DNA of 64,000 bases from an uncultured Planctomycetaceae bacterium (GTDB lineage Bacteria > Planctomycetota > Phycisphaerae > SM23-33): positions 688 through 64,687 of the forward strand of contig CAYRZU010000007.1 in assembly GCA_964428895.1 (NCBI GenBank). The letters run 5' to 3'. This document shows positions 514 through 13,501 of this stretch, piece after piece (the first letter of the stretch is position 1; each line of letters starts with the position of its first letter). The notes under the pieces were generated by a model, which saw only the letters and a list, made by a program, of their open reading frames with translations, had not been told where the DNA came from and did not search any database. Both the position numbers and the translations under genes were made by a program.

Positions 514-2040
514 CTATACGTCCACCGTCACGACCTTGGTGTCGGCCGCGGCGACGTAGGTGCCGTCGCGTTTGGCTTGCTCGCGTTCGGCTTTGCGTTC
601 CTGGATGATCTTACGGAAGACCTCAATCTCCACGCGCCAGCCCTTCATGGCTCGGCCCGACAATCGGCTGGTCTGCAACATCTCGAGGAGCTTGCTGGTG
701 AAGGACATCTTCCGACTCAGCACGGCCCGGAAGCTCCGGCCGTTCAGGTTGGTCCGGTAGAACCGGCGGTGGGCGTCGAAGAGCACGTCCTGGAAGTTTT
801 CGATGCCCAGGTGGCTGTGATCGTACAGGCAGTGCGTGCCGTCGAAGAAATCCCAGTCGCCCGGGAACTTCCGGAACAGCAGGTGCGGGCGATATTCGTC
901 GAACAGCGGCGTGCCCGGGAACGGCGTCAGGCACGAGAGCTGAATGGAGTTGATCTTGTTGCGCTGGCCGAACTCGAGAATGCCGTCCACGTGGGTCTGC
1001 TTGTGCTGCGGGCCGACCACGAACATGCCGTGAATCCAGATGCCGTTTTCCACGATGAGCTTCGTGTCGGTGGCAAGTCGCTCGGCCAGGGAAACGTCGC
1101 CCTTCTGGTAGCCCTTCTTCCAGCCCTTGGCGGTGGCCTCGTCGATGGTTTCGTAGCCGATGTAGAGGCTCTGGGCGCCGCCGCGGCGCATCAGCCGCAT
1201 CAGGTCCTTATCCAAACGCGTGCGGGAGGCGTCTTCCCACATGAAGTCGATGCGGCTCTGCGTGTTGAACCGCACGTTCATGGGGGCGATGCGGCGGAGG
1301 AGGTTCTTCAGCCACGGGCGGTTTGAGGTAAAATTGTCGTCGTAATAGAACAGCTGATTGAAGCCGCGGCCGGTATAGACCTTCAGGTCGTCGGCCACCT
1401 TTTGGACCGACTGCTGTCGCACGCGACGGCCGAACATGCGCGTCACCGAGCAGTACACGCACCCATAGGGGCAGCCCCGGCTGGTCATGGCGGGCAGTTC
1501 GTACAGTTCGTTGCGGTAGCAATGATCCAGCAGGTCTTCCTGGAAGCGGTGGATCAGGAAATGGTTCAGCGCGGGCAGTTCGTCGAGGTCTTCGACGGGC
1601 TCGCCCTCGTGGATGCCGTCTTCGACTTCCCCGGCCGCGATGGCCTCGATCATCCGCTCGCCTTCGCCGCGGCAAACGATGTCGGCGTGCTGGATCACTT
1701 CTTCGGGGACCATGGTCGCGTGCACGCCGCCCATGGCGATCTTCCCGGTGAAGCCATCCTCCCGCAGCTTGGCGGCGATGTCATAGCCCCGACCGGCGGT
1801 GGACGTCATGATGGTCAGACAGACCACGTCGGCGCTCTTCAGGTCGTCATAGACGACCGGGTCGGAATCGACCAAGCCGGAAATGTTCTCATTGAAAATG
1901 CGGACGTCGTAGCCGCGATTGTCCAGGATCGTCGCCAGCGTGATCGGCCCGACCAACGGCCAACGGGTGATCCAGACGTTCAGGGGGCGCGAGTGGCGCC
2001 CCTGCGGCTCGATAAACCGGATTTTCTTTCGGCTGAGCAT
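514..2040 (-). CDS. B12-binding-domain/radical SAM (class B) enzyme, probable methyltransferase
   Basis: 508 aa. Radical-SAM cluster motif CPYGCVYCSV (CxxxCxxC). An N-terminal cobalamin-binding-like Rossmann segment (DVVCLTIMTSTA...GGVHAT). The size is typical of class-B radical SAM methylases. Confidence 0.8.
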   Translation of the reverse strand: MLSRKKIRFIEPQGRHSRPLNVWITRWPLVGPITLATILDNRGYDVRIFNENISGLVDSDPVVYDDLKSADVVCLTIMTSTAGRGYDIAAKLREDGFTGKIAMGGVHATMVPEEVIQHADIVCRGEGERMIEAIAAGEVEDGIHEGEPVEDLDELPALNHFLIHRFQEDLLDHCYRNELYELPAMTSRGCPYGCVYCSVTRMFGRRVRQQSVQKVADDLKVYTGRGFNQLFYYDDNFTSNRPWLKNLLRRIAPMNVRFNTQSRIDFMWEDASRTRLDKDLMRLMRRGGAQSLYIGYETIDEATAKGWKKGYQKGDVSLAERLATDTKLIVENGIWIHGMFVVGPQHKQTHVDGILEFGQRNKINSIQLSCLTPFPGTPLFDEYRPHLLFRKFPGDWDFFDGTHCLYDHSHLGIENFQDVLFDAHRRFYRTNLNGRSFRAVLSRKMSFTSKLLEMLQTSRLSGRAMKGWRVEIEVFRKIIQERKAEREQAKRDGTYVAAADTKVVTVDV

Positions 2041-2169
2041 GTGGCTTCCGGGCCTAGAGCCCGACCTCGCTGGCTGGTTATGGAAAAACGCCCCGCACGC
2101 GAGCGGGGCAACTCATCGAGCGAACATAATAGCAGACAAAGTCGACAAATGCGAGACGGCGTCGCTGAA

Positions 2170-4290
2170 TTATGGCGAAACGCCGCGCCGCCGCCTCGGC
2201 CGCCAGAAGAGCTTCAGGCAGGCCGGTAGGAGGAGGATGTCGCCGACCGCGGCGGCGGTCATGGTGACGCCTATCAGTTCGGCGAAGCGGCGGGTGGGAA
2301 CGAAACTCGAGCCCAATAGCACGCTCATGCCGCCGACGATGATGATGGTGGTCAGGATGATGGCCCGGCCGGTCGTTCGATAGGTCCGGCCGATCGCCGC
2401 GGTCACGTCGCCGTCGACGGCGATCTCTCGGCGGAAGCGGGCCAGCGCGTGGACGCTGTCGTCGACGGCCATGCCCAGGCCGATCGAGAAGATGATGATG
2501 TTGGAGATGTTCATGTCGTAACCCCGCAGGCCGATGTAGCCCCAGGCGGCCGCCAGCGGCGCGGCGTTGGGGATCACCGCGATCAGCCCCATCCGCACCG
2601 ACCGGAACAACAGCCCGATCAGCGTCAGAATCACCACTGATGTGCCCACGAACGACAGCATGAACTCCCGGACCACCCACCGGATCACCCGGGCGTAGTC
2701 GACCGTCCGCCCCCCCAGCCGGGCCCGAACGTCCAGCCCGGCGAAGGCCGTGTTCAGGCCCGCCGTCAGGCGATCCGCCAACGCGCACATGCGGCGCGAG
2801 CCTTCGTAGTTGACGTTCAACGTCAGCGCGTGTCGGCTGGCTCGGCCAGTCGTGGGTTCGACTACGGCCCGGCCGGCGTCCCCGTTGGTGGGCTGCACCG
2901 CCAACACGCGGTCGGTCGCTTCGGCGAGCTCGGCGAACCGAGCGACCGCGGCATCCGTCTGGGGCGATTGCAGCGATTCGGCGTCGCCGGCCTCCAGCAC
3001 CACCCCCACTTCCGAAAAGCCGCCGAAATGGTTCTCGACAATATCGATGGCTTGGAGGATCGGATGATCGTCGTCATAAACCGCCGCCACGGAGGCGTTG
3101 ATTTTCGACCGCTGGCCCAGCCCCACGCACGCGGCCAACACCACCACGCCGATCAGCAACACCCACTTGGGCCGCCGCGAGGCCACCGACGACATGGCCA
3201 CCGCCGCCCGAGCTAACCAATCGTCGCCCGTGGCCCGAACCGGGGCCGGCCGCCGCGCCATCGGCAGCAGGCCGATCATCAGCCACAGCAACGCCAGATA
3301 TAGCAGCCCCAGCCCCACCACCGCCTGGCGGGCAAACGTGTGCAGCATCTCGGCCTGGGCCCCGCGCAGCGTGGCAAACCCAATCGCCGTGGTGGCCACC
3401 GTCAGCAAGCACGGCAAGGCCATCTGCCACAGCGTCCGCAGCGCCGCCCGGCGCGGCGAGAGCATGGTCAGCTCGCCCGTCTCGATATGCCGCGTCAGCA
3501 CGTGCACGCAGTTGGCCGTACCGATCGTGAACAGCACCGCCGGCAGAATGCTGCTGAGCAGGCCGAAGCTCTGACCGGTAACGGCCATGAAAACCATGAA
3601 CCACGCCATGGCCGCGGTGATCGTCACCAACGGCAAGGCCACGTCGATGGGTCTGCGAAACGCCACCACCAGCAGGATCGCAATCACCACCCCGGCCAGC
3701 GGCATCAGGCGGTGCTGGTCGGCCCGCAGGTCCTTCATAATCACCGCATGCACCGCGGGCCAACCGGCCTGATAGACCCGCCACCCCGCCGGGGGCGCTG
3801 ATCCCTTCAGCAACCGATCGACCTCACGCGATACGGATTGAGCGGCTGTCGGCTCGAGCCCATCCGGTTGAATCGCAATGCTCGCATATCGCCGATCGGC
3901 ACTAACGAGCTTGCCTTCCAGCCGAGCCAGCACCGCTGGCGACCTAGCCCCCGGGACCTCTGTCAACGCCCAGACGGTCTTGACCCGCGGCAACAACTTG
4001 ACCGCCTTGACGAACTCCCCCTGCCAGGCCAGGCCCTCCTCGCTTATCGCCGTCTCGCCACCCGGCGCCTCGGCCAACACAAACAACATCTCACTATCAT
4101 CGGACTTGACCAACGAACCGGCGTCCGAAAGCCGATGCTCGTATCCATCGAGAATGGCCCATGGCGAAAAATCGAATGCGATCTGCGGCGTCAGCGCCAC
4201 CCCCGCCAAGGCCACCAGCGCCGCCGCGGCCGTCAGCCACCAGCGACGCCGATACAAGAAGATGGACACCCGCCACCGCTTGATCGCCAC
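2170..4290 (-). CDS. MMPL/RND-superfamily membrane transporter (exporter)
   Basis: 706 aa with two blocks of about 5-6 hydrophobic helices, each preceded by a large soluble loop. This is MMPL-type topology. It has a GTG start with a GGAAGGGAAG Shine-Dalgarno upstream. It is tandem with the radical SAM gene. Confidence 0.7.
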   Translation of the reverse strand: MAIKRWRVSIFLYRRRWWLTAAAALVALAGVALTPQIAFDFSPWAILDGYEHRLSDAGSLVKSDDSEMLFVLAEAPGGETAISEEGLAWQGEFVKAVKLLPRVKTVWALTEVPGARSPAVLARLEGKLVSADRRYASIAIQPDGLEPTAAQSVSREVDRLLKGSAPPAGWRVYQAGWPAVHAVIMKDLRADQHRLMPLAGVVIAILLVVAFRRPIDVALPLVTITAAMAWFMVFMAVTGQSFGLLSSILPAVLFTIGTANCVHVLTRHIETGELTMLSPRRAALRTLWQMALPCLLTVATTAIGFATLRGAQAEMLHTFARQAVVGLGLLYLALLWLMIGLLPMARRPAPVRATGDDWLARAAVAMSSVASRRPKWVLLIGVVVLAACVGLGQRSKINASVAAVYDDDHPILQAIDIVENHFGGFSEVGVVLEAGDAESLQSPQTDAAVARFAELAEATDRVLAVQPTNGDAGRAVVEPTTGRASRHALTLNVNYEGSRRMCALADRLTAGLNTAFAGLDVRARLGGRTVDYARVIRWVVREFMLSFVGTSVVILTLIGLLFRSVRMGLIAVIPNAAPLAAAWGYIGLRGYDMNISNIIIFSIGLGMAVDDSVHALARFRREIAVDGDVTAAIGRTYRTTGRAIILTTIIIVGGMSVLLGSSFVPTRRFAELIGVTMTAAAVGDILLLPACLKLFWRPRRRRGVSP

Positions 4291-4292
4291 GG

Positions 4293-5045
4293 CTACTTCC
4301 CTTCCGCCAGTCCCTTGCTGGTCAGGAAATCATAGCTCTCGGCCAGAGCGTCGAACATATCGCCTTCAACCACGTCGAGTTCAACCACGGCCCATCGCAA
4401 CACATTGGGGTCCGTCCGCTCCAGGCAGCCGACGATGTCCATCTTGCCCTGGCCCAGCGGCGCCGAGGGGAACTTCGGCTCGATGGGCCCGTCCCGCAAG
4501 TGGATCACGGGCATGCGGCCGGCGTATTGCTCGATGACGGTTAGGTAGTCGGCCCCGGCGCAAGCGGCCCAGTACGGGTCGAATTCGGTCTGTAGCTTCG
4601 GACACAATTCGAACAACACCTCAAAGCCCACGCGTCCATTGACGCGCAACGCGAACTCGCCGTCATGGTTGTGCATGAACATGCCCATGCCAATCGATTC
4701 GAGTGTCTCGATGCCGGCGTTGATCTGCTCAGCTTCGGCTCTCAGGTCGTCGAAGGAGGCATCCTCAGGCAGGCCGCTGTGGCACATCATTGCCAGCCCC
4801 ATCGTCTGATAGGCTCCGATGCAGGTGTCGAAGCTCTCCCACTCCACGCCCGGATCCATCGACGAGCACAACTCCATGCCGACGTCCTCGACCATCGTGC
4901 GCCAGTCACGGGGCGAAAGCCCCAACAGCCCAACGGGCTCGACCGCCCGAAAGCCGATGTCGGCCACTCGCTTCAATGTGCCCGCGACGTCAGCTTGAAT
5001 CGTCTCCCGTAGCGTCCACAGATTCACACCAATCGGAGGAGCCAT
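4293..5045 (-). CDS. Sugar phosphate isomerase/epimerase (xylose isomerase-like TIM barrel) family protein
   Basis: 250 aa starting MAPPIGVNLWTLRE... The fold motifs match xylose-isomerase-like TIM barrels. It is paralogous to the next gene. Confidence 0.8.
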   Translation of the reverse strand: MAPPIGVNLWTLRETIQADVAGTLKRVADIGFRAVEPVGLLGLSPRDWRTMVEDVGMELCSSMDPGVEWESFDTCIGAYQTMGLAMMCHSGLPEDASFDDLRAEAEQINAGIETLESIGMGMFMHNHDGEFALRVNGRVGFEVLFELCPKLQTEFDPYWAACAGADYLTVIEQYAGRMPVIHLRDGPIEPKFPSAPLGQGKMDIVGCLERTDPNVLRWAVVELDVVEGDMFDALAESYDFLTSKGLAEGK

Positions 5046-5123
5046 GATCGATCTCCCAAAATGAAGCGCGGCGAGCCGCCCTGGCCCGCCGCGCTATTCA
5101 ATTCAAGCTTCTGAGACCTGGGC

Positions 5124-5870
5124 CTACTTGCCCGTACCCAAACCGTTGCTGGTCAGGAAGTCGATGCTCTGGGCAACCGCCTCCAGCATGTCGCCTTCGG
5201 CTTCGTCGAGCTCGACCACCGCCCACTTCAGGGCGCCGCCTTCAGCCGCCTTGAGGCAGCCGGCGATGTCGACCTTGCCCTGCCCGACGGCGGTCATGGG
5301 GCTGGCCGGTGAAATCGGGCCGTCCTTGACGTGCATCAGCGGCATGCGCGACCTGTAGCGGCTGATCACGTCCACCGGATCGGCCCCGCCGACCTGCACC
5401 CAATAGATGTCGGTTTCGGTCTGCAGCTTGGGGCACATCTCGAATAGCGTGTCGAACAGGCATTTGCCGTCGAACATCGCCTCGAACTCGCCGTTGTGGT
5501 TGTGCATGAACATGCTCATGCCCAGCGCGTCGAGCTTCTCGCACACCGCGTTGATGTCAGCCGCGGCCGCGGTGAGCTCGTCCAGCGTCGTGCCGCCGCC
5601 GAAGCCCATGTGGCTGACCATGTCCAGCCCTAAATCCTTGGCCGACTGAACGGCGCCGTCGAAATCGCTCATCACGTCCGGGCCGTGCGAACTGCTGACC
5701 TGCATGCCGAGGTCTTCGACCGCCTTGCGGACATCAGCGGCCGACATGTCGCCGAAACCGGCCGGCTCGACACCGGCATAGCCCATGTCGGCAATCTTCT
5801 TCAGCGTGCCCAGCATGTCCTGGGCGGTCTCTTCGCGAACGGAGTACAGTTGTACCGAAATAGGCGGCAT
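5124..5870 (-). CDS. Sugar phosphate isomerase/epimerase (xylose isomerase-like TIM barrel) family protein, tandem paralog
   Basis: Start chosen at the internal ATG (5868-5870, MPPISVQLYSVRE...), which has a GGAAGGA Shine-Dalgarno 9 nt upstream. The track ORF extends further 5' but has no SD. The protein aligns along its length with 4293..5045. Confidence 0.75.
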   Translation of the reverse strand: MPPISVQLYSVREETAQDMLGTLKKIADMGYAGVEPAGFGDMSAADVRKAVEDLGMQVSSSHGPDVMSDFDGAVQSAKDLGLDMVSHMGFGGGTTLDELTAAAADINAVCEKLDALGMSMFMHNHNGEFEAMFDGKCLFDTLFEMCPKLQTETDIYWVQVGGADPVDVISRYRSRMPLMHVKDGPISPASPMTAVGQGKVDIAGCLKAAEGGALKWAVVELDEAEGDMLEAVAQSIDFLTSNGLGTGK

Positions 5871-6476
5871 GGCTGGTGATCCTTCCATTTCTTGTGTTGT
5901 GTTGCCAAGTGTCCTATCGCCCGCGCGACGCGTCACCCACGGCCCAAAAGCCGAGAAACACGCCCCACGCGAACGCTGGAAGGTAGCCCCGCGACCGGCA
6001 CCTGTCAATCCGAACCGAACGTGTCATGACGAAAACGCCACCCCACCGTCAGCGCCACCCTCCAAGCCCATCGACTGCGTCGATGGGATCGCACCCGCAA
6101 ACCCAATGCGCGCAAAAAACGACAGACAGGCCCTATGGAGGCGATGGCCTGTCCGTCGCGACTCAAACCTTAGGTCCAGAGCCCTCACTTACCCTTACGG
6201 ACCCTCGGCGAATCAAAGAGCTACGTATGTTTGCCTGAACATCCTTGCGGCGACTTCTAGAAGTGTGCGTCTCGAATCGGTTGTCAGATATGCAACTCAA
6301 TTGATTATACGCGCGCCCTACAGGGACGACCTGAAAACCAATTACCACGGGTGAATTTTCTGCGCAAGTGAAGGCTGAATCGGCAAGAACACCTTTGTCA
6401 GACTTTGCGGCCGCATCTACAATGATCCCGAAACGCTCTGGGCGCCCCGGGCGGACAAGTCTATCAGATATCAGGG

Positions 6477-7583
6477 ATGACCATGTCAGACGCCTTGCTC
6501 GACACTCAGCCGGCCGAACTGCTCGTCAACTCGCATAATGAATGGGACCCGCTCGAAGAGGTCATTGTCGGGCGCGTCGCCGGCAGCGCCATGCCCCCCT
6601 GGCACGTCACGCTGAAGTCCACCGTCCCCCAGCGCGCCTGGGAAGTGCTGCAGGCGCTGTCAGGCAAGCCGGCGCCGCCGCCGTTCGTGACGGCCGCCCA
6701 GAAAGAGCTCGACACCTTCATTGACATCCTCGAGGCCGAAGGTGTGACCGTCCGCCGGCCGGACCTGATCCCCCAGGCCCGCCCGTTCGCCACGCCGGAT
6801 TGGGACTGCGAGGGCGGCTACAACATCGCCAACCCGCGCGACCTGCTGCTGGTGATCGGTGATGAGATCATCGAGACCGCCCCGGCCTGGCGGTCGCGCT
6901 ACTTCGAGGTCAATGCGTATCGGTCGTTGCTGATGGAATACTTCCGCGCCGGCGCCAAGTGGTCGGCCGCCCCCCGGCCGCGGTTGACCGATGATTTCTA
7001 CAATGACGATTACGAGGTCCCCGCCAAGAGCCAACCCCAACGGTACGCCATCAACGAGACGGAAGTCACCTTCGACGCCGCCGATTTCTGCCGATGCGGA
7101 CGGGACCTGTTCGTTACGCGAAGCAACGTCACCAACGATCTCGGCATCAAGTGGCTCGCCCGTCATCTCGGCGACGGCTATCGCATTCACACAATCGAAA
7201 CCAAGTCACGCCAGCCGATGCACATCGATACCACCTTCGTGCCGCTGGCGCCCGGCAAGGCGTTGATTAACCCCGAATACGTTGATACCGATCGGCTGCC
7301 GAGCGTGCTGGCCGAATGGGAGCTCCGCTACGCCCCCCTGCCGGTGGTCAACCCGGGTATGACCATCGATATGAGCAGCACCTGGCTGACCATGAACGTG
7401 CTGATGCTCGACCCCAAGCGCGTGATGGTCGAGGCCGCCCAGGAGCCGCTCATGCAGATGCTTCGGGACTGGGGCTTCGAGCCCGTCCCCTGCCCCTACC
7501 AGAACTACTACTACTTCGGCGGCGGCTTCCACTGCTCCACGCTCGATGTCCGCCGCCGCGGCGAACTGCAGTCCTACTTCTAG
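6477..7583 (+). CDS. L-arginine:glycine amidinotransferase (AGAT/StrB1) family amidinotransferase
   Basis: 368 aa with SHNEWDPLEEV near the N-terminus. The C-terminus GGGFHCSTLDVRRRGELQSYF contains the catalytic Cys and the VRRRG.LQSY signature of true amidinotransferases (AGAT-like). This distinguishes it from hydrolases of the same superfamily. Confidence 0.85.
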   Translation: MTMSDALLDTQPAELLVNSHNEWDPLEEVIVGRVAGSAMPPWHVTLKSTVPQRAWEVLQALSGKPAPPPFVTAAQKELDTFIDILEAEGVTVRRPDLIPQARPFATPDWDCEGGYNIANPRDLLLVIGDEIIETAPAWRSRYFEVNAYRSLLMEYFRAGAKWSAAPRPRLTDDFYNDDYEVPAKSQPQRYAINETEVTFDAADFCRCGRDLFVTRSNVTNDLGIKWLARHLGDGYRIHTIETKSRQPMHIDTTFVPLAPGKALINPEYVDTDRLPSVLAEWELRYAPLPVVNPGMTIDMSSTWLTMNVLMLDPKRVMVEAAQEPLMQMLRDWGFEPVPCPYQNYYYFGGGFHCSTLDVRRRGELQSYF

Positions 7584-7605
7584 TCGAGGCTGCGGGAGTC
7601 CGCCC

Positions 7606-10179
7606 ATGAAGTTCGCGTTTCTCATCCATCCCCTCAACGCCTACACCAAGCTATTGCTGCATCTGGGGGCGGGGGGCTTCTTCGCCAAGGATCGTCAGGA
7701 ACTCGACCTGTTCGACTTCTACGCCGACCTGCACAATACCGTCCAAACGCAAGGCCGCACCGTTCAGGACGCCGCCAGCGATGACGTACGCGTGGTCGAT
7801 GAGATGGCCGAACTGGTCAGCCACAACGGCTGCCGCGCCGCCGGTCGCATCTATGAAGTCCCCATGCAGGCCACCGAGATCATCGACAACCCCCAGCAAG
7901 CCGTCGGCTACATGGAAAAGGCCGTCGACCAGGCCGCCGACTGGGGCGCCGAACTGGTGGGACTGGGCTCGATGACGGGCGTGGTCGGCAGCCAGGGCGT
8001 GTACCTGGCCAACCGCGGCACCACCGCCATCACCACCGGGAACTGCCTGACCGCCTACGCCACGCTCGAGAATCTCCGCAGCCTTAGCGAGGACGCCGGC
8101 ATCGATCTGGCCGACGAGATCGTTACCGTGGTGGGCTGCCCGGGCAGCATCGCCATGGCGCTGGCCCACGCGCTGGTCGGAAAGTGTCGCGAGCTTCACC
8201 TGGTGGCCCGGCGGTTGTCGGCCCGGTCGCAGAGCCTGGCCGAACAACTCGGCGCCAAACTCCTGCTGGATATCCCCGAGGCCCTGTCGCAATCCCGCGT
8301 GGTCCTGTCGGCCACGTCCTCGGGCGACTGCATCGACCAGGCGTGGCTGCAGCCGGGCAGCGTGGTGCTCGACGTGGCGATCCCCTCCGACGTGGTCTGG
8401 CAGCCCGAGCCGCGCCCGGACGTGCTGGTGATCTCGGCGGGCCTGGCCACCGTGCCGCAGCAGATGATCGGCGATTCCATGCTGCTGGGGTTCTACGGCG
8501 GGCTCGTGCCCTCTTGCCTGGGCGAGACCATCATCCTGGCCCTGGAGAACCGCCCGGAGAACTACTCCGTCGGCCGCGACCTGGACCCCAAGCACATCCA
8601 GGAGATCGGCCAGCTCGCCCACAAGCACGGATTCGACTTCACGCGGCTGACCAGTTTCGGTCTGCCCATCGCCGAGAACGAGTTCACGCGGTTCCGCAAA
8701 ATCGTCACCCAACACGGCGCCCGCCCCCAACGCAAGATCCCCGCTGGAACCGACGGCGCCCCTCCTGCCAACGTCTTGCCCGACATCCCCTCCCTGGCCC
8801 AGCGCGCCCGCCAACGCTACCAGCGCTACGTCAACCCGGTCTGGGCCGCCCTGGGCGGTGAGTCCGGGCTGGTCAAGACATTCGTCCGCGCCGAAGGCGC
8901 GTTCCTCTACGACGCCGCCGACCGACGCTTCCTCGACTTCGTCGCCGGCTACGGCTCGATGAATCTCGGCCACAACCATCCGGCTGTTGTCGAAGCCGTC
9001 AGCTCGGCGCTTACCCAAAAAGCGCCCGGCTTCGCCCAGACGGCCGTCAACCCCCTGACGGCTGCCCTGGCTGAGAAGCTCATCTCCATCACACCCGGCA
9101 GCCTCGAACTGGCGTTCTTCACCAACAGCGGGGCCGAATCCGTCGAAGCCGCTCTCAAGCTCGCCCGCGCCGCGACTGGCCGAACGGGCCTGCTCAGTTG
9201 TGAAGGCGGCTACCACGGCAAGACGTTCGGCGCCCTGTCCGTTACCGCCAGCCCGCATTACCAAAGGCCGTTCTCGCCGCTGCTGGCCGATACCGCGGTC
9301 GTGCCCTTTGGCGACCTGGAAACGCTCGAGCGCGCCCTGAGCACACGGCGATTCGCCGCCTTTATCGTTGAGCCCATCCAGGGCGAAGGCGGTATGAACG
9401 TCCCGCCGGCCGGATACCTGGCCGAAGCACGAAAGCTCTGCCACGACGTCGGCACGTTGCTGATCGTCGATGAAGTCCAAACCGGCCTCGGGCGAACCGG
9501 CGAGCTGTTCGCCGTCAACCACGACGGGGTCGAGCCCGACATCATGACGCTGGCCAAGAGCCTCGGCGGCGGCCTCGTCCCGCTCGGCGCCATGCTCGCC
9601 CGCCGCGACCTATGGACCAAAGCCTACGGCACGCTCGACAGCTTCGCCCTGCACACCTCCACCTTCAGCGGGGGCAGTCTGGCCTGCGCGGCCGGCCTGG
9701 CCACACTGGACGTCCTCTGCAACGACGGGCTCGCCGACAGCGCCCGCCAGCACGGCCGGCAGCTCATGGCCACCCTCACCGAACTGTGTCGGCAATCCAC
9801 CATCCTCCAGGCCGTCCGCGGACGGGGCCTCATGATTGGTCTGGAGTTCCAGCCTATCTCCAAGGCGATCGCCCATCAGTTCGAACGCATGGCCCTGGCT
9901 GCCAACGCCGAGTTTATGGTCCGAGGCCTCGACGACCTGATCCAGACGATCCCCGTTACCTACGTGATGGCCACGCTGCTCCACGAGCACGGCATCTACA
10001 CCCAATTCACGCGATCCAACCCCAACGTGCTCCGCGTTCAGCCGCCGCTGATTGTCACCGAACGCCAGGCCGATCACTTCTGCGAGGCCGTCGAGCAGGC
10101 CTGTTCCGAGTGCTTCTACGTCAGCGGCCTGGCCGAGTCCGTCCTCAGCAAATCCATCGGCGACCACCGCAACCAGTAG
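7606..10179 (+). CDS. Bifunctional fusion: N-terminal NAD(P)-binding dehydrogenase-like domain (shikimate/amino-acid dehydrogenase-like Rossmann) joined to a C-terminal class-III PLP-dependent aminotransferase
   Basis: Start at ATG 7606 (MKFAFLIHPLNAY...), with a GGGAG Shine-Dalgarno 9 nt upstream. The N-terminal half has the Rossmann motif TVVGCPGSIAMALAHAL around residue 190. The C-terminal half (from about residue 420) has class-III aminotransferase motifs: GSMNLGHNHP, the DEVQTGLGRTG box, and the PLP-lysine context MTLAKSLGGG. Total length is 857 aa. Confidence 0.75.
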   Translation: MKFAFLIHPLNAYTKLLLHLGAGGFFAKDRQELDLFDFYADLHNTVQTQGRTVQDAASDDVRVVDEMAELVSHNGCRAAGRIYEVPMQATEIIDNPQQAVGYMEKAVDQAADWGAELVGLGSMTGVVGSQGVYLANRGTTAITTGNCLTAYATLENLRSLSEDAGIDLADEIVTVVGCPGSIAMALAHALVGKCRELHLVARRLSARSQSLAEQLGAKLLLDIPEALSQSRVVLSATSSGDCIDQAWLQPGSVVLDVAIPSDVVWQPEPRPDVLVISAGLATVPQQMIGDSMLLGFYGGLVPSCLGETIILALENRPENYSVGRDLDPKHIQEIGQLAHKHGFDFTRLTSFGLPIAENEFTRFRKIVTQHGARPQRKIPAGTDGAPPANVLPDIPSLAQRARQRYQRYVNPVWAALGGESGLVKTFVRAEGAFLYDAADRRFLDFVAGYGSMNLGHNHPAVVEAVSSALTQKAPGFAQTAVNPLTAALAEKLISITPGSLELAFFTNSGAESVEAALKLARAATGRTGLLSCEGGYHGKTFGALSVTASPHYQRPFSPLLADTAVVPFGDLETLERALSTRRFAAFIVEPIQGEGGMNVPPAGYLAEARKLCHDVGTLLIVDEVQTGLGRTGELFAVNHDGVEPDIMTLAKSLGGGLVPLGAMLARRDLWTKAYGTLDSFALHTSTFSGGSLACAAGLATLDVLCNDGLADSARQHGRQLMATLTELCRQSTILQAVRGRGLMIGLEFQPISKAIAHQFERMALAANAEFMVRGLDDLIQTIPVTYVMATLLHEHGIYTQFTRSNPNVLRVQPPLIVTERQADHFCEAVEQACSECFYVSGLAESVLSKSIGDHRNQ

Positions 10180-10257
10180 TTCCCCGCCTCGCTCCCACCG
10201 TTGAAATCCCCATCCGCGCCCCGTATCATCGCCCTTTCTCTCGCAAAAGGAGCATCG

Positions 10258-11229
10258 ATGCCGTCATTCAAAGTCCTCATCACCGATTACGTCTTTGAGC
10301 ACTTCGACGCCGAAACCGAAGTCCTCTCGGCCGTCGACGCCGAACTCGACATCCACCAGGCCAAGTCCGCCGATGAACTTGTCCCGCATCTGGGCGGCGT
10401 CAACGCCATCCTCAACACCTACCTGCCCGGCATGGACGACGCGATCTTCTCGGCCGCCCCGGACCTGAAGGTCATCGTCCGATACGGCATCGGCGTCGAC
10501 ACCATCGACGTCGCCGCCGCGACCGCCCGCGGCATCATGGTCGCCAACGTGCCCGACTACTGCATCGACGAAGTCTCCGACCACGCCCTGGCCCACTTCC
10601 TGTCGCTGGCCCGGAAGATTCCCTTTTCCGATCGCAAGGTCAAGGGCGGCGAATGGTCATTGGCCTACCTCAAACCCATGAAGGGCATCACCAACATGAC
10701 CTGCGGCGTGATCGGCTTCGGCCGCATCGGCCGGGCCATCGCCGCCCGCCTCAAAGCGTTCGGACCGGACATCATCTTCGCCGACCCGTTCGGCGACGGC
10801 GACGTGGACGGCTGCCGCCGCGTGTCGCTGGATGAACTGTTCGCCGAATCCGACGCAATCTTCGTGCAGTGCCCCTCCAGCGCCGAGACCTACCACCTGA
10901 TCGACCGGGCCGCCATTGAGAAGATGGCTAAGCAGCCCTTCATCATCAACTGCGCCCGCGGCGACGTTATCGATACCGACGCGATCGTCTGGGGCCTCGA
11001 AAACGACAAGATCGCCGGGGTCGGCCTCGACCTGCTCGACGATGAAGACGCCGTCGTCAAAGCAGACCATCCGCTCAAGGGGTTCGACAACGCCATCCTC
11101 ACCCCGCACAGCGCGTGGTATTCGGCCGACGCCCTCGACAAGTTGCAGCGAATGGCGGCCGAGGAAGTCGCCCGCGTGCTCCGTGGCGAAAAGCCCAAAT
11201 CGCTCATCAACCCCGACGTACTCAAGTAG
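10258..11229 (+). CDS. D-isomer-specific 2-hydroxyacid dehydrogenase family (PGDH/hydroxypyruvate reductase-like), NAD-binding
   Basis: Start at ATG 10258 with an AAAGGAG Shine-Dalgarno. It has the GVIGFGRIGRAIAARL Rossmann motif and a catalytic-domain layout typical of D-2-hydroxyacid dehydrogenases. Confidence 0.85.
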   Translation: MPSFKVLITDYVFEHFDAETEVLSAVDAELDIHQAKSADELVPHLGGVNAILNTYLPGMDDAIFSAAPDLKVIVRYGIGVDTIDVAAATARGIMVANVPDYCIDEVSDHALAHFLSLARKIPFSDRKVKGGEWSLAYLKPMKGITNMTCGVIGFGRIGRAIAARLKAFGPDIIFADPFGDGDVDGCRRVSLDELFAESDAIFVQCPSSAETYHLIDRAAIEKMAKQPFIINCARGDVIDTDAIVWGLENDKIAGVGLDLLDDEDAVVKADHPLKGFDNAILTPHSAWYSADALDKLQRMAAEEVARVLRGEKPKSLINPDVLK

Positions 11230-11238
11230 GAGTTCCCC

Positions 11239-12024
11239 ATGAAGCTCGCGAAAATCGACGCTAACGGCCACGTAGCCTACGCCCAGGTCGACGGCGACAC
11301 CTGCCGACTGATCGACGGCTGCATCTTCGGCGAATTCACCGTCACGGATAAGACCGTGGCCCTGGCCGACGTTAAGCTCCTGGCCCCCGTTCAGCCGCGC
11401 CAGCTCGTGGCGATCGGCCTGAACTATCGGGCCCACGCCGAAGAATCCGGCATGGCCATTCCCGAACGCCCGCTGATCTTCATCAAGACGCCCAACTGCG
11501 TGGTCGGGCCGGGCGAGCCCATCCTGCTGCCTAAGATGGCGCCCGACGAGGTCGACTACGAGTGCGAACTCGTGATCGTCATCGGCAAAGAGGCCAAGAG
11601 CGTCTCCGTGGCCGACGCCCCGGGCTACGTCCTGGGCTACACCTGCGGCAACGACGTCAGCGCCCGCGACTGCCAGCTCAAGCAGGACAAGCAATGGGCT
11701 CGCGGCAAGAGCTTCGACACCTTCGCCCCGCTCGGCCCGTGGATCGAAACCGAGCTCGACGCCGACAACGTCGGCATCAAGCTATCCGTCAACGGCCAAG
11801 AGCGCCAGAACTCCACCACCTCCGACCTGATCTTCCCCTGCATGGAACTGGTCAGCTACGTCTCCCAGTGCATGACGCTGTACCCGGGCAGCATCATCAT
11901 GACCGGCACGCCGTCGGGCATCGCCTTTGCGATGGACCCGCCGCCGTTCCTGCGCGACGGCGACACCGTTACCGTCGACATCGACGGCATCGGGGCGCTG
12001 ACCAACCCCGTGAAAAAGGAGTAG
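11239..12024 (+). CDS. Fumarylacetoacetate hydrolase (FAH) family protein (2-keto-4-pentenoate hydratase/oxaloacetate decarboxylase-like)
   Basis: 261 aa with an AGGAG Shine-Dalgarno 7 nt upstream. The FAH-fold signature segments are present (…GLNYRAHAEE…, …ECELVIVIGK…, …IMTGTPSG…). Confidence 0.8.
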   Translation: MKLAKIDANGHVAYAQVDGDTCRLIDGCIFGEFTVTDKTVALADVKLLAPVQPRQLVAIGLNYRAHAEESGMAIPERPLIFIKTPNCVVGPGEPILLPKMAPDEVDYECELVIVIGKEAKSVSVADAPGYVLGYTCGNDVSARDCQLKQDKQWARGKSFDTFAPLGPWIETELDADNVGIKLSVNGQERQNSTTSDLIFPCMELVSYVSQCMTLYPGSIIMTGTPSGIAFAMDPPPFLRDGDTVTVDIDGIGALTNPVKKE

Positions 12025-12028
12025 CAAC

Positions 12029-13501
12029 ATGGATATCCGAAACCAACTCTTCATCGGCGGCGCCTGGTGCGATTCATCCGATGGCAAGACGTTCGAGGTG
12101 ACCAACCCCGCCACGAATGCATCCATCACGGCCGTCCAGTCGGCCTCCGAAGCCGACTTGAACCGCGCGATCGATAACTCCAAGCAGACCTTTGACGCGG
12201 TCTGGAGTAAGACCACCCCGTTCGAGCGGAGCGCGTTCCTGCACAAGCTGGCCGAGGCCGTCGAGAACAATGCCGACTTCCTGGCGGCTGTCGAAACCGA
12301 CGACGTCGGTAAGCCCATCTTCGAAAGCGCCAACATCGACGTCGCCAGCGCCGGCGCCACGCTCCACTACTTCGCCGACATCTGCGTGGAGGTCCTCGGC
12401 GGCGTCAAGGCCAGCCCCTACAACGAGGTCTTCGACTACACCCTCCGCGAGCCGCTGGGCGTGGTCGGGGCTATCACCCCGTGGAACTTCCCGTTCCTGA
12501 TCGCCGCCCGCAAGATCGGCTCGGCCCTGGCCGCGGGCAACACCATGGTCCTGAAGCCCGCCTCCTGGGCGCCGCTGAGCACGATCCTATTCGGCGAACT
12601 CGCCAACGAGGCCGGCCTGCCCGCCGGCGTGCTGAACATCGTCCCCGGCGCCGGGGCGACGGTCGGCAAGGTCTTCACCGAAAACCCCGACCTCGAAGAG
12701 ATATCCTTCACCGGCTCGACGGAAGTCGGCATGGGCCTGTACGGCCAGTGCAACACCGGGCTGAAGGGTTGCACGCTGGAACTGGGCGGCAAAGGCGCCG
12801 GGCTGGTCATGCCCGACTGCGCCATGGACGAAACAGTCGCCGGCACGCTGTTCGGCGTGTTCCTCAACCAGGGCGAATGCTGCTGCGCCCTGACGCGGCT
12901 GATTGTGCATGAAGACGTCTACGACGAGTTCGTCGACAAGTTCGTCGCCGGCGCCCAGGCCATCCCCGTCGGCGTGCCGACGGCTGAGGACACCCGCCTC
13001 GGGCCGTTGGTCCACCCCGACCATCTCCAGACCGTGCTCGATTACGTCGAAGCCGGCAAGGCCGAAGGCGCCACGCTCGCTTGCGGCGGCGAGCGTCTGA
13101 CCGACGGCGAGATGGCCAAAGGCAACTACATGGCCCCGACTGTCTTCACCGACGTAAGCCCCCAGATGCGAATCTGGAAGGAAGAAATCTTCGGCCCGGT
13201 GGTGACGGTGACGAAGGCCTCCAGCGTCGACGAGATGGTGGCGTTGTGCAACGACACCGAGTACGGCCTCGCCTCGAGCGTCTGGACCAACGACCTGCGG
13301 CTGGCCCACACCATCGTCCCGCGGATGAAGACGGGCACGGTGTGGTTCAACCTGCACAACTTCGTGTTCCCCAGCGCCCCGTACCCCACCTGCGGATCGT
13401 CCGGCGTGGGCTTCGAGCTGGGCAAAGAAGGCGTCCTGGCGCTGACCCGCATCAAGAACGTCATGGTCAGCCTGTTTCCCGACGGCTTCGCTTGGTACTA
13501 G
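12029..13501 (+). CDS. NAD(P)+-dependent aldehyde dehydrogenase
   Basis: 490 aa with an AAGGAG Shine-Dalgarno. The ALDH glutamate box is ELGGKGAGLVMPD and the catalytic Cys region is NQGECCCALTRLIV. Confidence 0.9.
   Translation: MDIRNQLFIGGAWCDSSDGKTFEVTNPATNASITAVQSASEADLNRAIDNSKQTFDAVWSKTTPFERSAFLHKLAEAVENNADFLAAVETDDVGKPIFESANIDVASAGATLHYFADICVEVLGGVKASPYNEVFDYTLREPLGVVGAITPWNFPFLIAARKIGSALAAGNTMVLKPASWAPLSTILFGELANEAGLPAGVLNIVPGAGATVGKVFTENPDLEEISFTGSTEVGMGLYGQCNTGLKGCTLELGGKGAGLVMPDCAMDETVAGTLFGVFLNQGECCCALTRLIVHEDVYDEFVDKFVAGAQAIPVGVPTAEDTRLGPLVHPDHLQTVLDYVEAGKAEGATLACGGERLTDGEMAKGNYMAPTVFTDVSPQMRIWKEEIFGPVVTVTKASSVDEMVALCNDTEYGLASSVWTNDLRLAHTIVPRMKTGTVWFNLHNFVFPSAPYPTCGSSGVGFELGKEGVLALTRIKNVMVSLFPDGFAWY

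What the first reader, a model, noticed from the sequence alone, without database searches (positions are those of the whole stretch)
7606..10179. Unusual single-polypeptide fusion of an NAD(P)-Rossmann dehydrogenase-like domain with a class-III PLP aminotransferase
One continuous 857-aa ORF with no frameshift or stop. The N-terminal ~400 aa carry a mid-domain GxPGSxA dinucleotide-binding motif (TVVGCPGSIAMALAHAL). That motif is preceded by a substrate-binding lobe, a layout like shikimate/amino-acid dehydrogenases or glutamyl-tRNA reductase. The C-terminal ~440 aa are a complete class-III aminotransferase (DEVQTGLGRTG, PLP-Lys in TLAKSLGGG).

Oxidation/reduction and transamination of the same carbon in one protein would channel an alcohol-to-ketone-to-amine or an amine-to-aldehyde-to-alcohol conversion. 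I do not recognise this fusion as a described enzyme family.
Basis: seen in the sequence. Interest (0 to 1): 0.65.

Follow-up and report, generated by a model that had tools for sequence, protein, structure and literature searches.

The report
PigE-type thioester reductase–aminotransferase fusion enzyme
The 857-residue protein is real, but it belongs to an already described two-domain enzyme type (PigE of prodigiosin biosynthesis) that reduces an acyl thioester to an aldehyde and then aminates it; here it sits in a marine planctomycete, outside any pigment cluster, directly behind an amidinotransferase gene.

Summary
Window 7606-10179(+) is one uninterrupted 857-codon gene, and the identical protein occurs on 11 metagenome contigs.

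The claim that the fusion is undescribed is wrong.
- The whole protein aligns collinearly with Serratia PigE (PDB 4ppm, E=2e-159). It scores 786 bits on NCBIfam "PigE", below the 850-bit cutoff.

The chemistry is therefore acyl thioester to aldehyde to primary amine, not alcohol to ketone to amine.

This protein is not PigE itself. The window has no pig genes, and the protein belongs to a large clade of such fusions (50-60% identity) whose named members are all Planctomycetota.

The new point is the gene 22 nt upstream, 6477-7583. It is an SxtG/AGAT-type amidinotransferase (E=2e-124 to SxtG). An unrelated 41%-GC lineage has a reverse-order aminotransferase-reductase fusion directly followed by the same kind of amidinotransferase, then SMR and RND exporters. 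This suggests, but does not prove, that the amine is converted to a guanidine.

Verdict: new member of a known kind, moderate-to-low interest.

The parts
7606..10179 (+). Gene for the 857-aa bifunctional thioester reductase-aminotransferase (PigE-type TR-TA), stop codon included
   Evidence: No internal stop. NCBIfam NF053554 PigE scores 785.8 bits over residues 47-835. PDB 4ppm matches at E=2e-159. The A2 family profile against 4ppm gives E=9e-222 in one stretch.
7606..8715 (+). N-terminal AAR-like thioester reductase domain (residues 1-370)
8134..8154 (+). Dinucleotide-binding motif G177-C-P-G-S-I-A183
   Evidence: Read from the sequence. G177, P179, G180 and S181 are invariant in 114 homologues. 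It aligns with GATGDIG of AAR and GYPGSIC of PigE.
8515..8517 (+). Codon of Cys304, the predicted acyl-accepting catalytic cysteine
   Evidence: It aligns with the Cys of PigE (...lngCmaeti) and of AAR (...mfaCfaeam); the literature numbers these Cys296 and Cys294. Invariant in alignments A1 and A2.
8716..8880 (+). Inter-domain segment (residues 371-425): a flexible linker followed by the first helices of the aminotransferase part
   Evidence: Per-residue pLDDT is below 50 only at 374-379, and the 10-residue block means for 371-390 are 50-55. Helices H394-408 and H411-417 follow. Conservation is poor in the A2 consensus.
8881..10101 (+). Class-III PLP aminotransferase domain (residues 426-832)
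9556..9558 (+). Codon of Lys651, the PLP Schiff-base lysine
   Evidence: TLAKSLGGG motif. K651, D622, E623 and Q625 are invariant in 114 homologues.
6477..7583 (+). Upstream gene: L-arginine:amine amidinotransferase (368 aa), probably co-transcribed; proposed to act on the amine made by the TR-TA
   Evidence: PDB hits: SxtG 6u1r E=2e-124, AGAT 1jdw/1jdx E~1e-100, HsvA 5wpi E=7e-98, StrB1 E=3e-70. Cys353 (FHC), His249 (PMHID) and Asp200/203 (FDAADF) are present. The stop lies 22 nt before the TR-TA start. Pfam misses the protein at its gathering threshold.
7594..7598 (+). GGGAG ribosome-binding-like sequence, 7 nt before the ATG at 7606
   Evidence: Read from the sequence.
2170..4290 (-). MMPL/HAE3-type RND transporter in the divergent gene set; a possible exporter of the product (weak link)
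   Evidence: Pfam MMPL E=6.5e-28; TIGR00921 HAE3 132.8 bits. RND/MMPL or other efflux genes recur near homologous fusions (L089, L012, L087, L174, L101), but they are not orthologous.
10258..13501 (+). Downstream same-strand genes: 2-hydroxyacid dehydrogenase (10258-11229), FAH-family hydrolase (11239-12024), aldehyde dehydrogenase (12029-13501). Their relation to the fusion is unresolved.
   Evidence: Pfam and NCBIfam assignments. A 78-nt gap and a promoter-like site at 10201-10229 precede them. Their synteny is shared only with the 94%-identical relative L176 and is absent from all other loci.

Best explanation
The gene encodes a bifunctional PigE-type enzyme.

Proposed mechanism:
1. The N-terminal AAR-like domain takes an acyl thioester, most likely carrier-protein-bound, onto Cys304.
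2. It reduces the acyl-enzyme with NAD(P)H to the aldehyde.
3. The aldehyde passes to the C-terminal class-III aminotransferase domain. That domain (PLP on Lys651) converts it to a primary amine, using an amino-acid donor such as ornithine or glutamate.

The enzyme is not the prodigiosin enzyme itself. It belongs to a large clade whose named members are all Planctomycetota and whose product is unknown.

In this organism the amine is probably amidinated by the SxtG-like amidinotransferase encoded 22 nt upstream. That reaction would use arginine as donor, give an N-substituted guanidine and release ornithine. The ornithine could in turn feed the aminotransferase.

What is shown here: the domain identities, the catalytic residues, the architecture and the gene linkage. 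What is inferred: the activities, the substrate and donor, the amidination step and the ornithine relay.
For: Architecture and homology:
- Full-length collinear match to PigE.
- C304, the GxPGS motif, K651 and D622/Q625 are invariant in 114 homologues.

Experimental precedent:
- Lysate of E. coli expressing PigE converts a thioester to the aminated product, and PigE forms PMP best with ornithine and arginine (PMC8341465).
- TamH reduces acyl-ACP with NADH and transaminates the aldehyde (PMC9594044).

Carrier-protein machinery next to homologues:
- An ACP is adjacent in L087 and near in L089.
- A KS/CLF pair lies upstream in L010, a FAAL-ACP-KS-AT-ACP PKS lies directly upstream in L038, and a PPTase is present in L012.
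- In the neighbour tally, ketoacyl-synt, PP-binding and ACPS recur.

Amidination step:
- The upstream gene is a bona fide amidinotransferase with its catalytic residues.
- It lies 22 nt upstream on the same strand.
- A 41%-GC lineage (L099/L101) has an 884-aa TA-TR fusion, opposite domain order with the Cys conserved, directly followed by a 55%-identical amidinotransferase. An SMR, a HlyD and an AcrB gene follow.
- SxtG accepts diverse primary amines (PMC12371840).
Against: - No enzyme assay exists for this protein. Purified PigE itself showed no detectable NAD(P)H-dependent thioester reduction in vitro; activity was seen only in lysate.
- The 64-kb window contains no ACP, adenylating enzyme or PPTase. 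The thioester donor is therefore unknown.
- The amidinotransferase linkage is rare. It is absent from the 18 other fusion loci examined (tblastn; Pfam gene tables). It is present in only 2 of 80 amidinotransferase loci, and those two are one lineage.
- In 6 of 19 loci the recurrent partner is instead a FemAB_like acyltransferase.
- The downstream 2-HADH/FAH/ALDH genes are unexplained.
- The tool returns no coordinates, so whether the two active sites face each other could not be examined. Only pTM 0.75 is available.
Confidence: 0.6

Rival explanations
1. The TR-TA makes an amine, as above, but the adjacent amidinotransferase is functionally unrelated. The amine is used as in most relatives of this clade, for example N-acylated by a FemAB_like transferase encoded elsewhere to give an amide lipid or metabolite.
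For: FemAB_like genes lie adjacent to or near the fusion in L008, L010, L088, L089, L174 and L175. FemAB_like is fused to TA-TR in the 1245-aa protein P0249. A fatty-acid desaturase lies next to the fusion in L174. The amidinotransferase is absent from all other planctomycete loci (tblastn; gene tables).
Against: The 64-kb window has no FemAB_like gene. The 22-nt spacing on the same strand argues for linkage, as does the independent TA-TR + amidinotransferase pairing in L099/L101.
Confidence: 0.25
2. The locus is catabolic. The YgjG-like aminotransferase domain deaminates an amine, polyamine or guanidino-amine to an aldehyde. The downstream aldehyde dehydrogenase then oxidises it, or the reductase domain running in reverse converts it to an acyl thioester. 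The amidinotransferase would first remove or exchange the amidino group.
For: The best non-PigE matches of the TA domain are putrescine aminotransferases. An ALDH that scores 415.6 bits on the aminobutyraldehyde dehydrogenase model (cutoff 615) lies 1.8 kb downstream on the same strand. Amidinotransferase reactions are reversible (general knowledge).
Against: YgjG similarity is a property of the whole PigE family, including biosynthetic PigE. All characterised relatives (AAR, PigE, TamH) work in the reductive, biosynthetic direction. The ALDH trio is not linked to the fusion in any other lineage, and a promoter-like site precedes it. ALDH scores are below every equivalog cutoff.
Confidence: 0.08
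3. It is a true PigE orthologue that makes a dihydropyrrole (H2MAP-like) building block for a prodiginine-type pigment.
For: The top NCBIfam hit is the PigE equivalog model, E=5.6e-236. Some JGI annotations of homologues read '3-acetyloctanal aminotransferase'.
Against: The score of 785.8 is below the curated 850-bit cutoff. No PigD, PigB, PigC or other pig/tam genes occur anywhere in the window. ThDP enzymes near two homologues are indolepyruvate-decarboxylase-like and acetolactate-synthase-like, not PigD. Identity to PigE is only about 40%, against 50-60% within the planctomycete clade.
Confidence: 0.04
4. The long ORF is an assembly or frameshift artefact that joins two ordinary genes.
For: None found.
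Against: The identical product occurs on 11 contigs from independent assemblies. There are hundreds of collinear full-length homologues. The experimentally expressed PigE has the same length and order.
Confidence: 0.01

Closest known systems
PigE (Serratia sp.; prodigiosin MAP branch; PDB 4ppm; NCBIfam NF053554)
   Different: Below the equivalog cutoff, 785.8 against 850 bits. No PigD or PigB partners and no pigment cluster. The host is a planctomycete, not an enterobacterium or vibrio. Its neighbour is an amidinotransferase. The substrate is therefore almost certainly not a 3-acetyloctanoyl thioester.
TamH (Pseudoalteromonas tunicata; tambjamine YP1)
   Same: The same two catalytic domains in one chain. 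It is shown experimentally to convert acyl-ACP (C12) to aldehyde and then to fatty amine (PMC9594044).
   Different: Domain order is reversed (TA-TR). It works with a dedicated ANL-ACP partner, TamA, and no such partner is present in the window. The reverse order is the one found next to an amidinotransferase in L101.
Cyanobacterial acyl-ACP reductase AAR (PDB 6jzq/6jzu)
   Different: AAR is a stand-alone protein of about 340 aa whose partner is the aldehyde-deformylating oxygenase, not a fused aminotransferase. Identity is only 20-24%.
Glutamyl-tRNA reductase / glutamate-1-semialdehyde aminomutase complex (HemA/HemL)
   Different: These are two separate proteins, with a tRNA ester as substrate and an aminomutase rather than a transaminase. 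The similarity is far more distant than to AAR or PigE.
SxtG / AGAT / HsvA amidinotransferases (for the upstream gene 6477-7583)
   Same: Full-length alignment at E=2e-124 to SxtG, with the Cys-His-Asp catalytic residues present. SxtG and HsvA amidinate primary amines produced by a preceding biosynthetic step.
   Different: There is no sxt, cyr or hsv cluster context. The pairing with a thioester reductase-aminotransferase was not found in the literature searched.

Membership tests
PigE-type TR-TA didomain enzymes (architecture class) | N-terminal AAR-like reductase domain with the nucleophilic cysteine | tested here: met
   [not shown]
PigE-type TR-TA didomain enzymes (architecture class) | NAD(P)H-binding Rossmann motif in the reductase domain | tested here: met
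   G177-x-P-G-S-I-A is invariant. Pfam Shikimate_DH scores 27.6 bits against a 24.3 cutoff.
PigE-type TR-TA didomain enzymes (architecture class) | C-terminal class-III aminotransferase with the PLP lysine, in the same polypeptide, in the order TR then TA | tested here: met
   Aminotran_3 covers residues 426-832 at E=5e-100. K651 is invariant. A single stretch aligns to 4ppm 49-852.
PigE-type TR-TA didomain enzymes (architecture class) | Catalytic conversion of thioester to aldehyde to amine | not testable with these tools
   This needs an enzyme assay. The precedent comes only from PigE lysate and the TamA/TamH cascade.
PigE equivalog (prodigiosin MAP biosynthesis, NF053554) | Score at or above the curated cutoff of 850 bits | tested here: not met
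   785.8 bits.
PigE equivalog (prodigiosin MAP biosynthesis, NF053554) | Genomic association with PigD (ThDP enzyme), PigB and the bipyrrole genes | tested here: not met
   None is present in the 64-kb window. ThDP enzymes near homologues are not PigD-like. The rest of the genome was not available.
TamH-type TA-TR enzymes | Aminotransferase N-terminal, reductase C-terminal, with a dedicated ANL-ACP partner | tested here: not met
   The order here is TR-TA. No AMP-binding or PP-binding gene is present in the window.
Cyanobacterial AAR/ADO alkane pathway | Stand-alone AAR next to an aldehyde-deformylating oxygenase | tested here: not met
   The domain is fused to an aminotransferase. No ADO-type gene appears among the Pfam-annotated neighbours.
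L-arginine:amine amidinotransferases (upstream gene 6477-7583) | AGAT/SxtG fold with a catalytic Cys (FHC) plus His and Asp residues | tested here: met
   SxtG E=2e-124, AGAT E~1e-100, full length. C353, H249 and D200/D203 are present.
L-arginine:amine amidinotransferases (upstream gene 6477-7583) | Identity of the amidino acceptor | not testable with these tools
   Only the genomic linkage to the TR-TA points to its amine product.

The most novel reading that the evidence does not exclude
The amidinotransferase and the thioester reductase/aminotransferase form a compact, previously undescribed two-gene module. It would turn a fatty or other acyl thioester into an N-alkylguanidine, a cationic amphiphile like the synthetic fungicide dodine. 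[quoted passage not shown] The module would have arisen at least twice, as TR-TA in a planctomycete and as TA-TR in a 41%-GC bacterium where SMR and RND exporters follow it.
Probability: 0.3. Interest if true: 0.6.

Novelty: new member of a known kind. Interest (0 to 1): 0.35.

Why it matters
The fusion itself answers no open question. PigE and TamH already established that an AAR-like reductase and an omega-transaminase can be fused to make amines from thioesters.

The locus adds three things:
- **A large uncharacterised clade.** There are hundreds of PigE-like fusions, and the named ones are all from Planctomycetota. They lie outside any prodiginine or tambjamine pathway, so their product is unknown. 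Candidates are amine-derived lipids or metabolites, and a FemAB_like acyltransferase is often linked to them.
- **A testable new pairing.** The link with an SxtG-like amidinotransferase would be a short enzymatic route from acyl thioesters to alkylguanidines. That is of interest for natural-product discovery and for biocatalytic production of amines and guanidines.
- **A caution for annotation.** The labels 'putrescine aminotransferase' and '3-acetyloctanal aminotransferase' carried by these proteins are probably wrong.

Tried and rejected
**1. Prodigiosin cluster.** I annotated the whole window and found no pig or tam genes. ThDP enzymes near two homologues looked like possible PigD, but they are IPDC-like and ALS-like.

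**2. Conserved operon.** tblastn of all 10 window neighbours against 15 other fusion loci gave no hit except a weak MMPL match. All-vs-all clustering found only FemAB_like recurring.

**3. Genome-collection scan with the full-length alignment.** It was swamped by stand-alone aminotransferases. Only about 15 of the 80 loci were fusions.

**4. Riboswitches.** No Rfam family, guanidine riboswitches included, reached its gathering score in the window or in L101.

**5. Hopanoid side-chain link.** The divergent genes include a B12-radical-SAM protein and an MMPL transporter. They score far below the HpnJ cutoff (101.8 against 577.6 bits) and the HpnN cutoff (62 against 752 bits), so I rejected this as a basis for function.

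**6. Active-site geometry.**
- The first AF2 run (21 sequences) modelled the TA domain poorly (pLDDT 66).
- The second run (114 sequences) is good (pLDDT 83.4, pTM 0.75).
- The tool returns no coordinates, so the distance and orientation of the two active sites could not be measured.
- The afdb50 library was unavailable.

**7. Literature.**
- No paper in the library combines 'amidinotransferase' with 'acyl-ACP reductase'.
- The combined search on amidinotransferase, thioester reductase, aminotransferase, guanidine and 'biosynthetic gene cluster' (at least 4 of the 5 terms) returned nothing relevant.
- The searches for alkylguanidine biosynthesis and for PigE with Planctomycetes returned only irrelevant hits.

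**8. Downstream genes.** I could not connect the 2-HADH/FAH/ALDH genes to the pathway.
Full report
**Observation**

The stretch 7606-10179(+) translates into 857 codons followed by a stop, with no internal stop.
- G177-C-P-G-S-I-A183 within TVVGCPGSIAMALAHAL.
- DEVQTGLGRTG at 622-632.
- TLAKSLGGG, with Lys651.

The ORF finder extends the frame to an ATG at 7546. That start would overlap the upstream gene, whose stop is at 7581-7583. A GGGAG lies 7 nt before the ATG at 7606, and the N-terminus MKFAF..H is conserved among homologues.

The gene is not a chance high-GC ORF. Pfam Aminotran_3 matches residues 426-832 at E=5e-100. The 623-aa ORF on the opposite strand (7651-9522) is its shadow.

It is not an assembly artefact either. 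The identical 857-aa product is called on 11 contigs from several independent metagenome assemblies. The protein database returned 361 homologues, and the best 120 are almost all full-length proteins of 850-930 aa with the same order of domains.

**What the two halves are**

*The whole protein.* It matches the NCBIfam model 'prodigiosin MAP biosynthesis aminotransferase PigE' over residues 47-835 and model positions 30-832 of 837. The score is 785.8 bits, below the curated cutoff of 850. In the PDB the only full-length match is Serratia PigE (4ppm, an 861-residue construct). It scores E=2e-159 with the single sequence and E=9e-222 with a 114-sequence profile, in one collinear stretch.

*The N-terminal 400 residues on their own.*
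- They hit the PigE N-half (E=9e-48).
- They hit the cyanobacterial long-chain acyl-ACP reductase AAR (6jzq/6jzu, E about 6e-11).
- They hit glutamyl-tRNA reductase weakly (E=0.003).
- In those alignments the query's ...VPSC304LGETI... lines up with the cysteine of PigE and of AAR. The literature identifies these as the acyl-accepting nucleophile, Cys296 and Cys294 (PMC8341465).
- Cys304, the TTGN motif (143-146) and the GxPGS dinucleotide motif are invariant in 114 homologues. So are D622, E623, Q625 and the PLP lysine K651 in the other half.

*Structure prediction.*
- An AlphaFold model built on the 114-sequence alignment has mean pLDDT 83.4 and pTM 0.75. Its inter-domain linker (about residues 371-393) is poorly predicted.

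**Known biology of this architecture**

PigE was first described as the 3-acetyloctanal transaminase of the prodigiosin MAP branch. Couturier et al. (PMC8341465) showed three things:
- A thioester is the true intermediate.
- The N-terminal region of PigE is homologous to acyl-ACP reductases.
- Lysates of E. coli expressing PigE convert the thioester to the aminated, cyclised product.

Purified PigE did not show the reduction in vitro. PMP formation was strongest with ornithine and arginine.

TamH of tambjamine biosynthesis has the same two domains in reverse order. Together with the ANL-ACP protein TamA, it converts a C12 acid to the C12 amine via acyl-ACP and aldehyde (PMC9594044).

The proposed alcohol/ketone chemistry should be replaced by thioester to aldehyde to primary amine.

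**How the domains are distributed**

The reductase domain alone was searched against 1.84 billion cluster representatives. It gave 2204 hits at E<=1e-3 and 107 at E<=1e-30. The best 150 classify as follows:

| Architecture | Count |
|---|---|
| Stand-alone protein of 450 aa or less (some are fragments) | 95 |
| TR-TA | 17 |
| TA-TR | 8 |
| Reductase at the C-terminus of a ~700-aa protein | 21 |
| Other arrangements | 9 |

The N-extension of the ~700-aa proteins has no Pfam match. One 1245-aa protein is FemAB_like + TA + TR.

**Why this is not PigE itself**

Where the sources give names, the close homologues (50-60% identity) come from Pirellulales, Planctomycetia, Thermoguttaceae, Rhodopirellula and Schlesneria. 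The best genome-collection relative, at 67% identity, is a Planctomycetota MAG.

The 64-kb window contains no PigD, PigB, bipyrrole or tambjamine genes. The ThDP enzymes that lie within 10 kb of two homologues are indolepyruvate-decarboxylase-like and acetolactate-synthase-like, not PigD-like.

None of the window's neighbours is conserved next to homologues in 15 other loci. The only recurrent partners across 19 fusion loci are:
- a FemAB_like/Acetyltransf_6 protein, in 6 loci;
- carrier-protein machinery: an ACP in L087 and L089, a KS/CLF pair in L010, a FAAL-ACP-KS-AT-ACP synthase directly upstream in L038, and a PPTase in L012;
- assorted efflux systems.

This supports carrier-bound acyl thioesters as the substrates of the family. 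It also points to an amine that is modified further and probably exported.

**The local context**

The gene directly upstream (6477-7583, same strand, stop 22 nt before the fusion's ATG) gave no Pfam hit at threshold. It is nevertheless an unmistakable L-arginine:amine amidinotransferase:
- E=2e-124 to SxtG.
- E about 1e-100 to human AGAT.
- E=7e-98 to the polyamine amidinotransferase HsvA.
- E=3e-70 to StrB1, aligned end to end.
- The catalytic Cys353 (FHC), His249 and Asp200/203 are present.

SxtG is reported to accept many primary amines (PMC12371840).

A metagenome scan with this protein returned 80 loci at 50-58% identity. Two of them, L099 and L101, carry reductase and aminotransferase sequences. 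They are 92-95% identical to each other, so they count as one lineage, with 41% GC.

In L101 an 884-aa protein with TA at residues 22-414 and TR at 523-855 lies directly upstream of the amidinotransferase. It keeps the TTGN motif, the Rossmann motif and the cysteine. An SMR transporter, a HlyD-type adaptor and an AcrB-type pump follow. SMR genes are also the commonest neighbour of this amidinotransferase subfamily, in 14 of the 80 loci.

The reductase/aminotransferase pair therefore sits next to this kind of amidinotransferase in two unrelated lineages, with opposite domain orders. That is the main argument that the linkage is functional.

**Most likely mechanism**

1. Shown by homology only: an acyl thioester is transferred to Cys304 and reduced by NAD(P)H to an aldehyde.
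2. Shown by homology only: the aldehyde is transaminated on the PLP domain to a primary amine.
3. Inferred from gene linkage: the amidinotransferase transfers the amidino group of arginine to that amine, giving an N-substituted guanidine and ornithine.
4. Speculative: the ornithine is the amino donor of step 2, as PigE prefers ornithine or arginine.
5. Speculative: the product is amphiphilic and is exported, for example by the divergently encoded MMPL/HAE3 transporter.

I put about 0.8 on steps 1-2 and about 0.35-0.4 on step 3.

Weak points:
- No assay exists for this protein.
- The window has no ACP or activating enzyme.
- The amidinotransferase pairing is rare.
- The same-strand genes downstream (2-hydroxyacid dehydrogenase, FAH-family hydrolase, aldehyde dehydrogenase) remain unexplained. 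They are preceded by a 78-nt gap and a promoter-like site. They are syntenic only in the 94%-identical relative.

**Rivals**

- The amidinotransferase may be a bystander, and the amine may be acylated by a FemAB_like enzyme encoded elsewhere, as in many relatives (0.25).
- The locus may be catabolic, with YgjG-like amine deamination followed by the ALDH (0.08).
- The protein may be a true PigE orthologue (0.04).
- The ORF may be an artefact (0.01).

**Verdict**

The protein is a new member of the known PigE/TamH kind of thioester reductase-aminotransferase fusion, so the claimed novelty of the fusion does not hold.

Two things remain of interest. One is the very large planctomycete clade of such enzymes with no known product. 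The other is the candidate amidinotransferase-coupled route to alkylguanidines, which is cheap to test by expressing two genes.

Noticed in passing
window 6477-7583 (+): A full-length SxtG/AGAT-type amidinotransferase (E=2e-124 to SxtG) that Pfam-A misses at its gathering threshold; only a 14.9-bit ADI hit appears. NCBIfam gives only weak dimethylargininase hits. It would be left as 'hypothetical' by domain-based annotation.
   Followed up: yes
L101 3131-12164 (and L099, which is 92-95% identical): A 41%-GC metagenome lineage carries a run of same-strand genes: TA-TR fusion (884 aa), amidinotransferase, SMR transporter, HlyD adaptor, AcrB pump. It is a compact candidate cluster for a cationic guanidine product with its own exporters.
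   Followed up: partly
80 amidinotransferase loci L093-L172: The commonest neighbour of this amidinotransferase subfamily is a ~107-aa SMR-family gene, in 14 of the 80 loci. The acceptor substrate and product of this widespread pairing are unknown.
   Followed up: partly
L008, L010, L088, L089, L174, L175; protein P0249: A FemAB_like/Acetyltransf_6 protein (~390-410 aa) lies adjacent to or near the TR-TA fusion in 6 of 19 loci. It is fused N-terminally to TA-TR in a 1245-aa protein. In L174 a fatty-acid/sphingolipid-type desaturase lies between them. This suggests N-acylated amine products, possibly lipids, in Planctomycetota.
   Followed up: partly
proteins P0150, P0167, P0168, P0172, P0176 and others: About 21 of the best 150 reductase-domain representatives are ~700-aa proteins with the AAR-like domain at the C-terminus. 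The two of them that were Pfam-scanned (P0150, P0176) have no Pfam match in their ~370-residue N-terminal extension. This is an uncharacterised third fusion type.
   Followed up: no
window 514-6008 (-): A divergent gene set: a B12-binding radical SAM protein (weakly HpnJ-like or ladderane-rSAM-like), an MMPL/HAE3 transporter, and two xylose-isomerase-like TIM-barrel proteins. Upstream in the source contig lie a UDP-glucose dehydrogenase and a DUF2339 protein. All scores are far below the hopanoid-family cutoffs, and the function is unknown.
   Followed up: partly
window 10258-13501 (+): A tightly spaced trio (gaps of 9 and 4 nt): 2-hydroxyacid dehydrogenase, FAH-family hydrolase with an Rv2993c-like N-domain, and aldehyde dehydrogenase. 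It resembles the lower part of a non-phosphorylative deoxy-sugar-acid or aromatic catabolic route. It could not be connected to the fusion.
   Followed up: partly
[not shown]
   Followed up: no
L013 10001-12628: The closest genome-collection relative (67% identity; a Planctomycetota MAG on a 2.9-Mb contig) shows the fusion split into several ORFs. These are probably frameshift errors of a long-read assembly rather than a real split.
   Followed up: no
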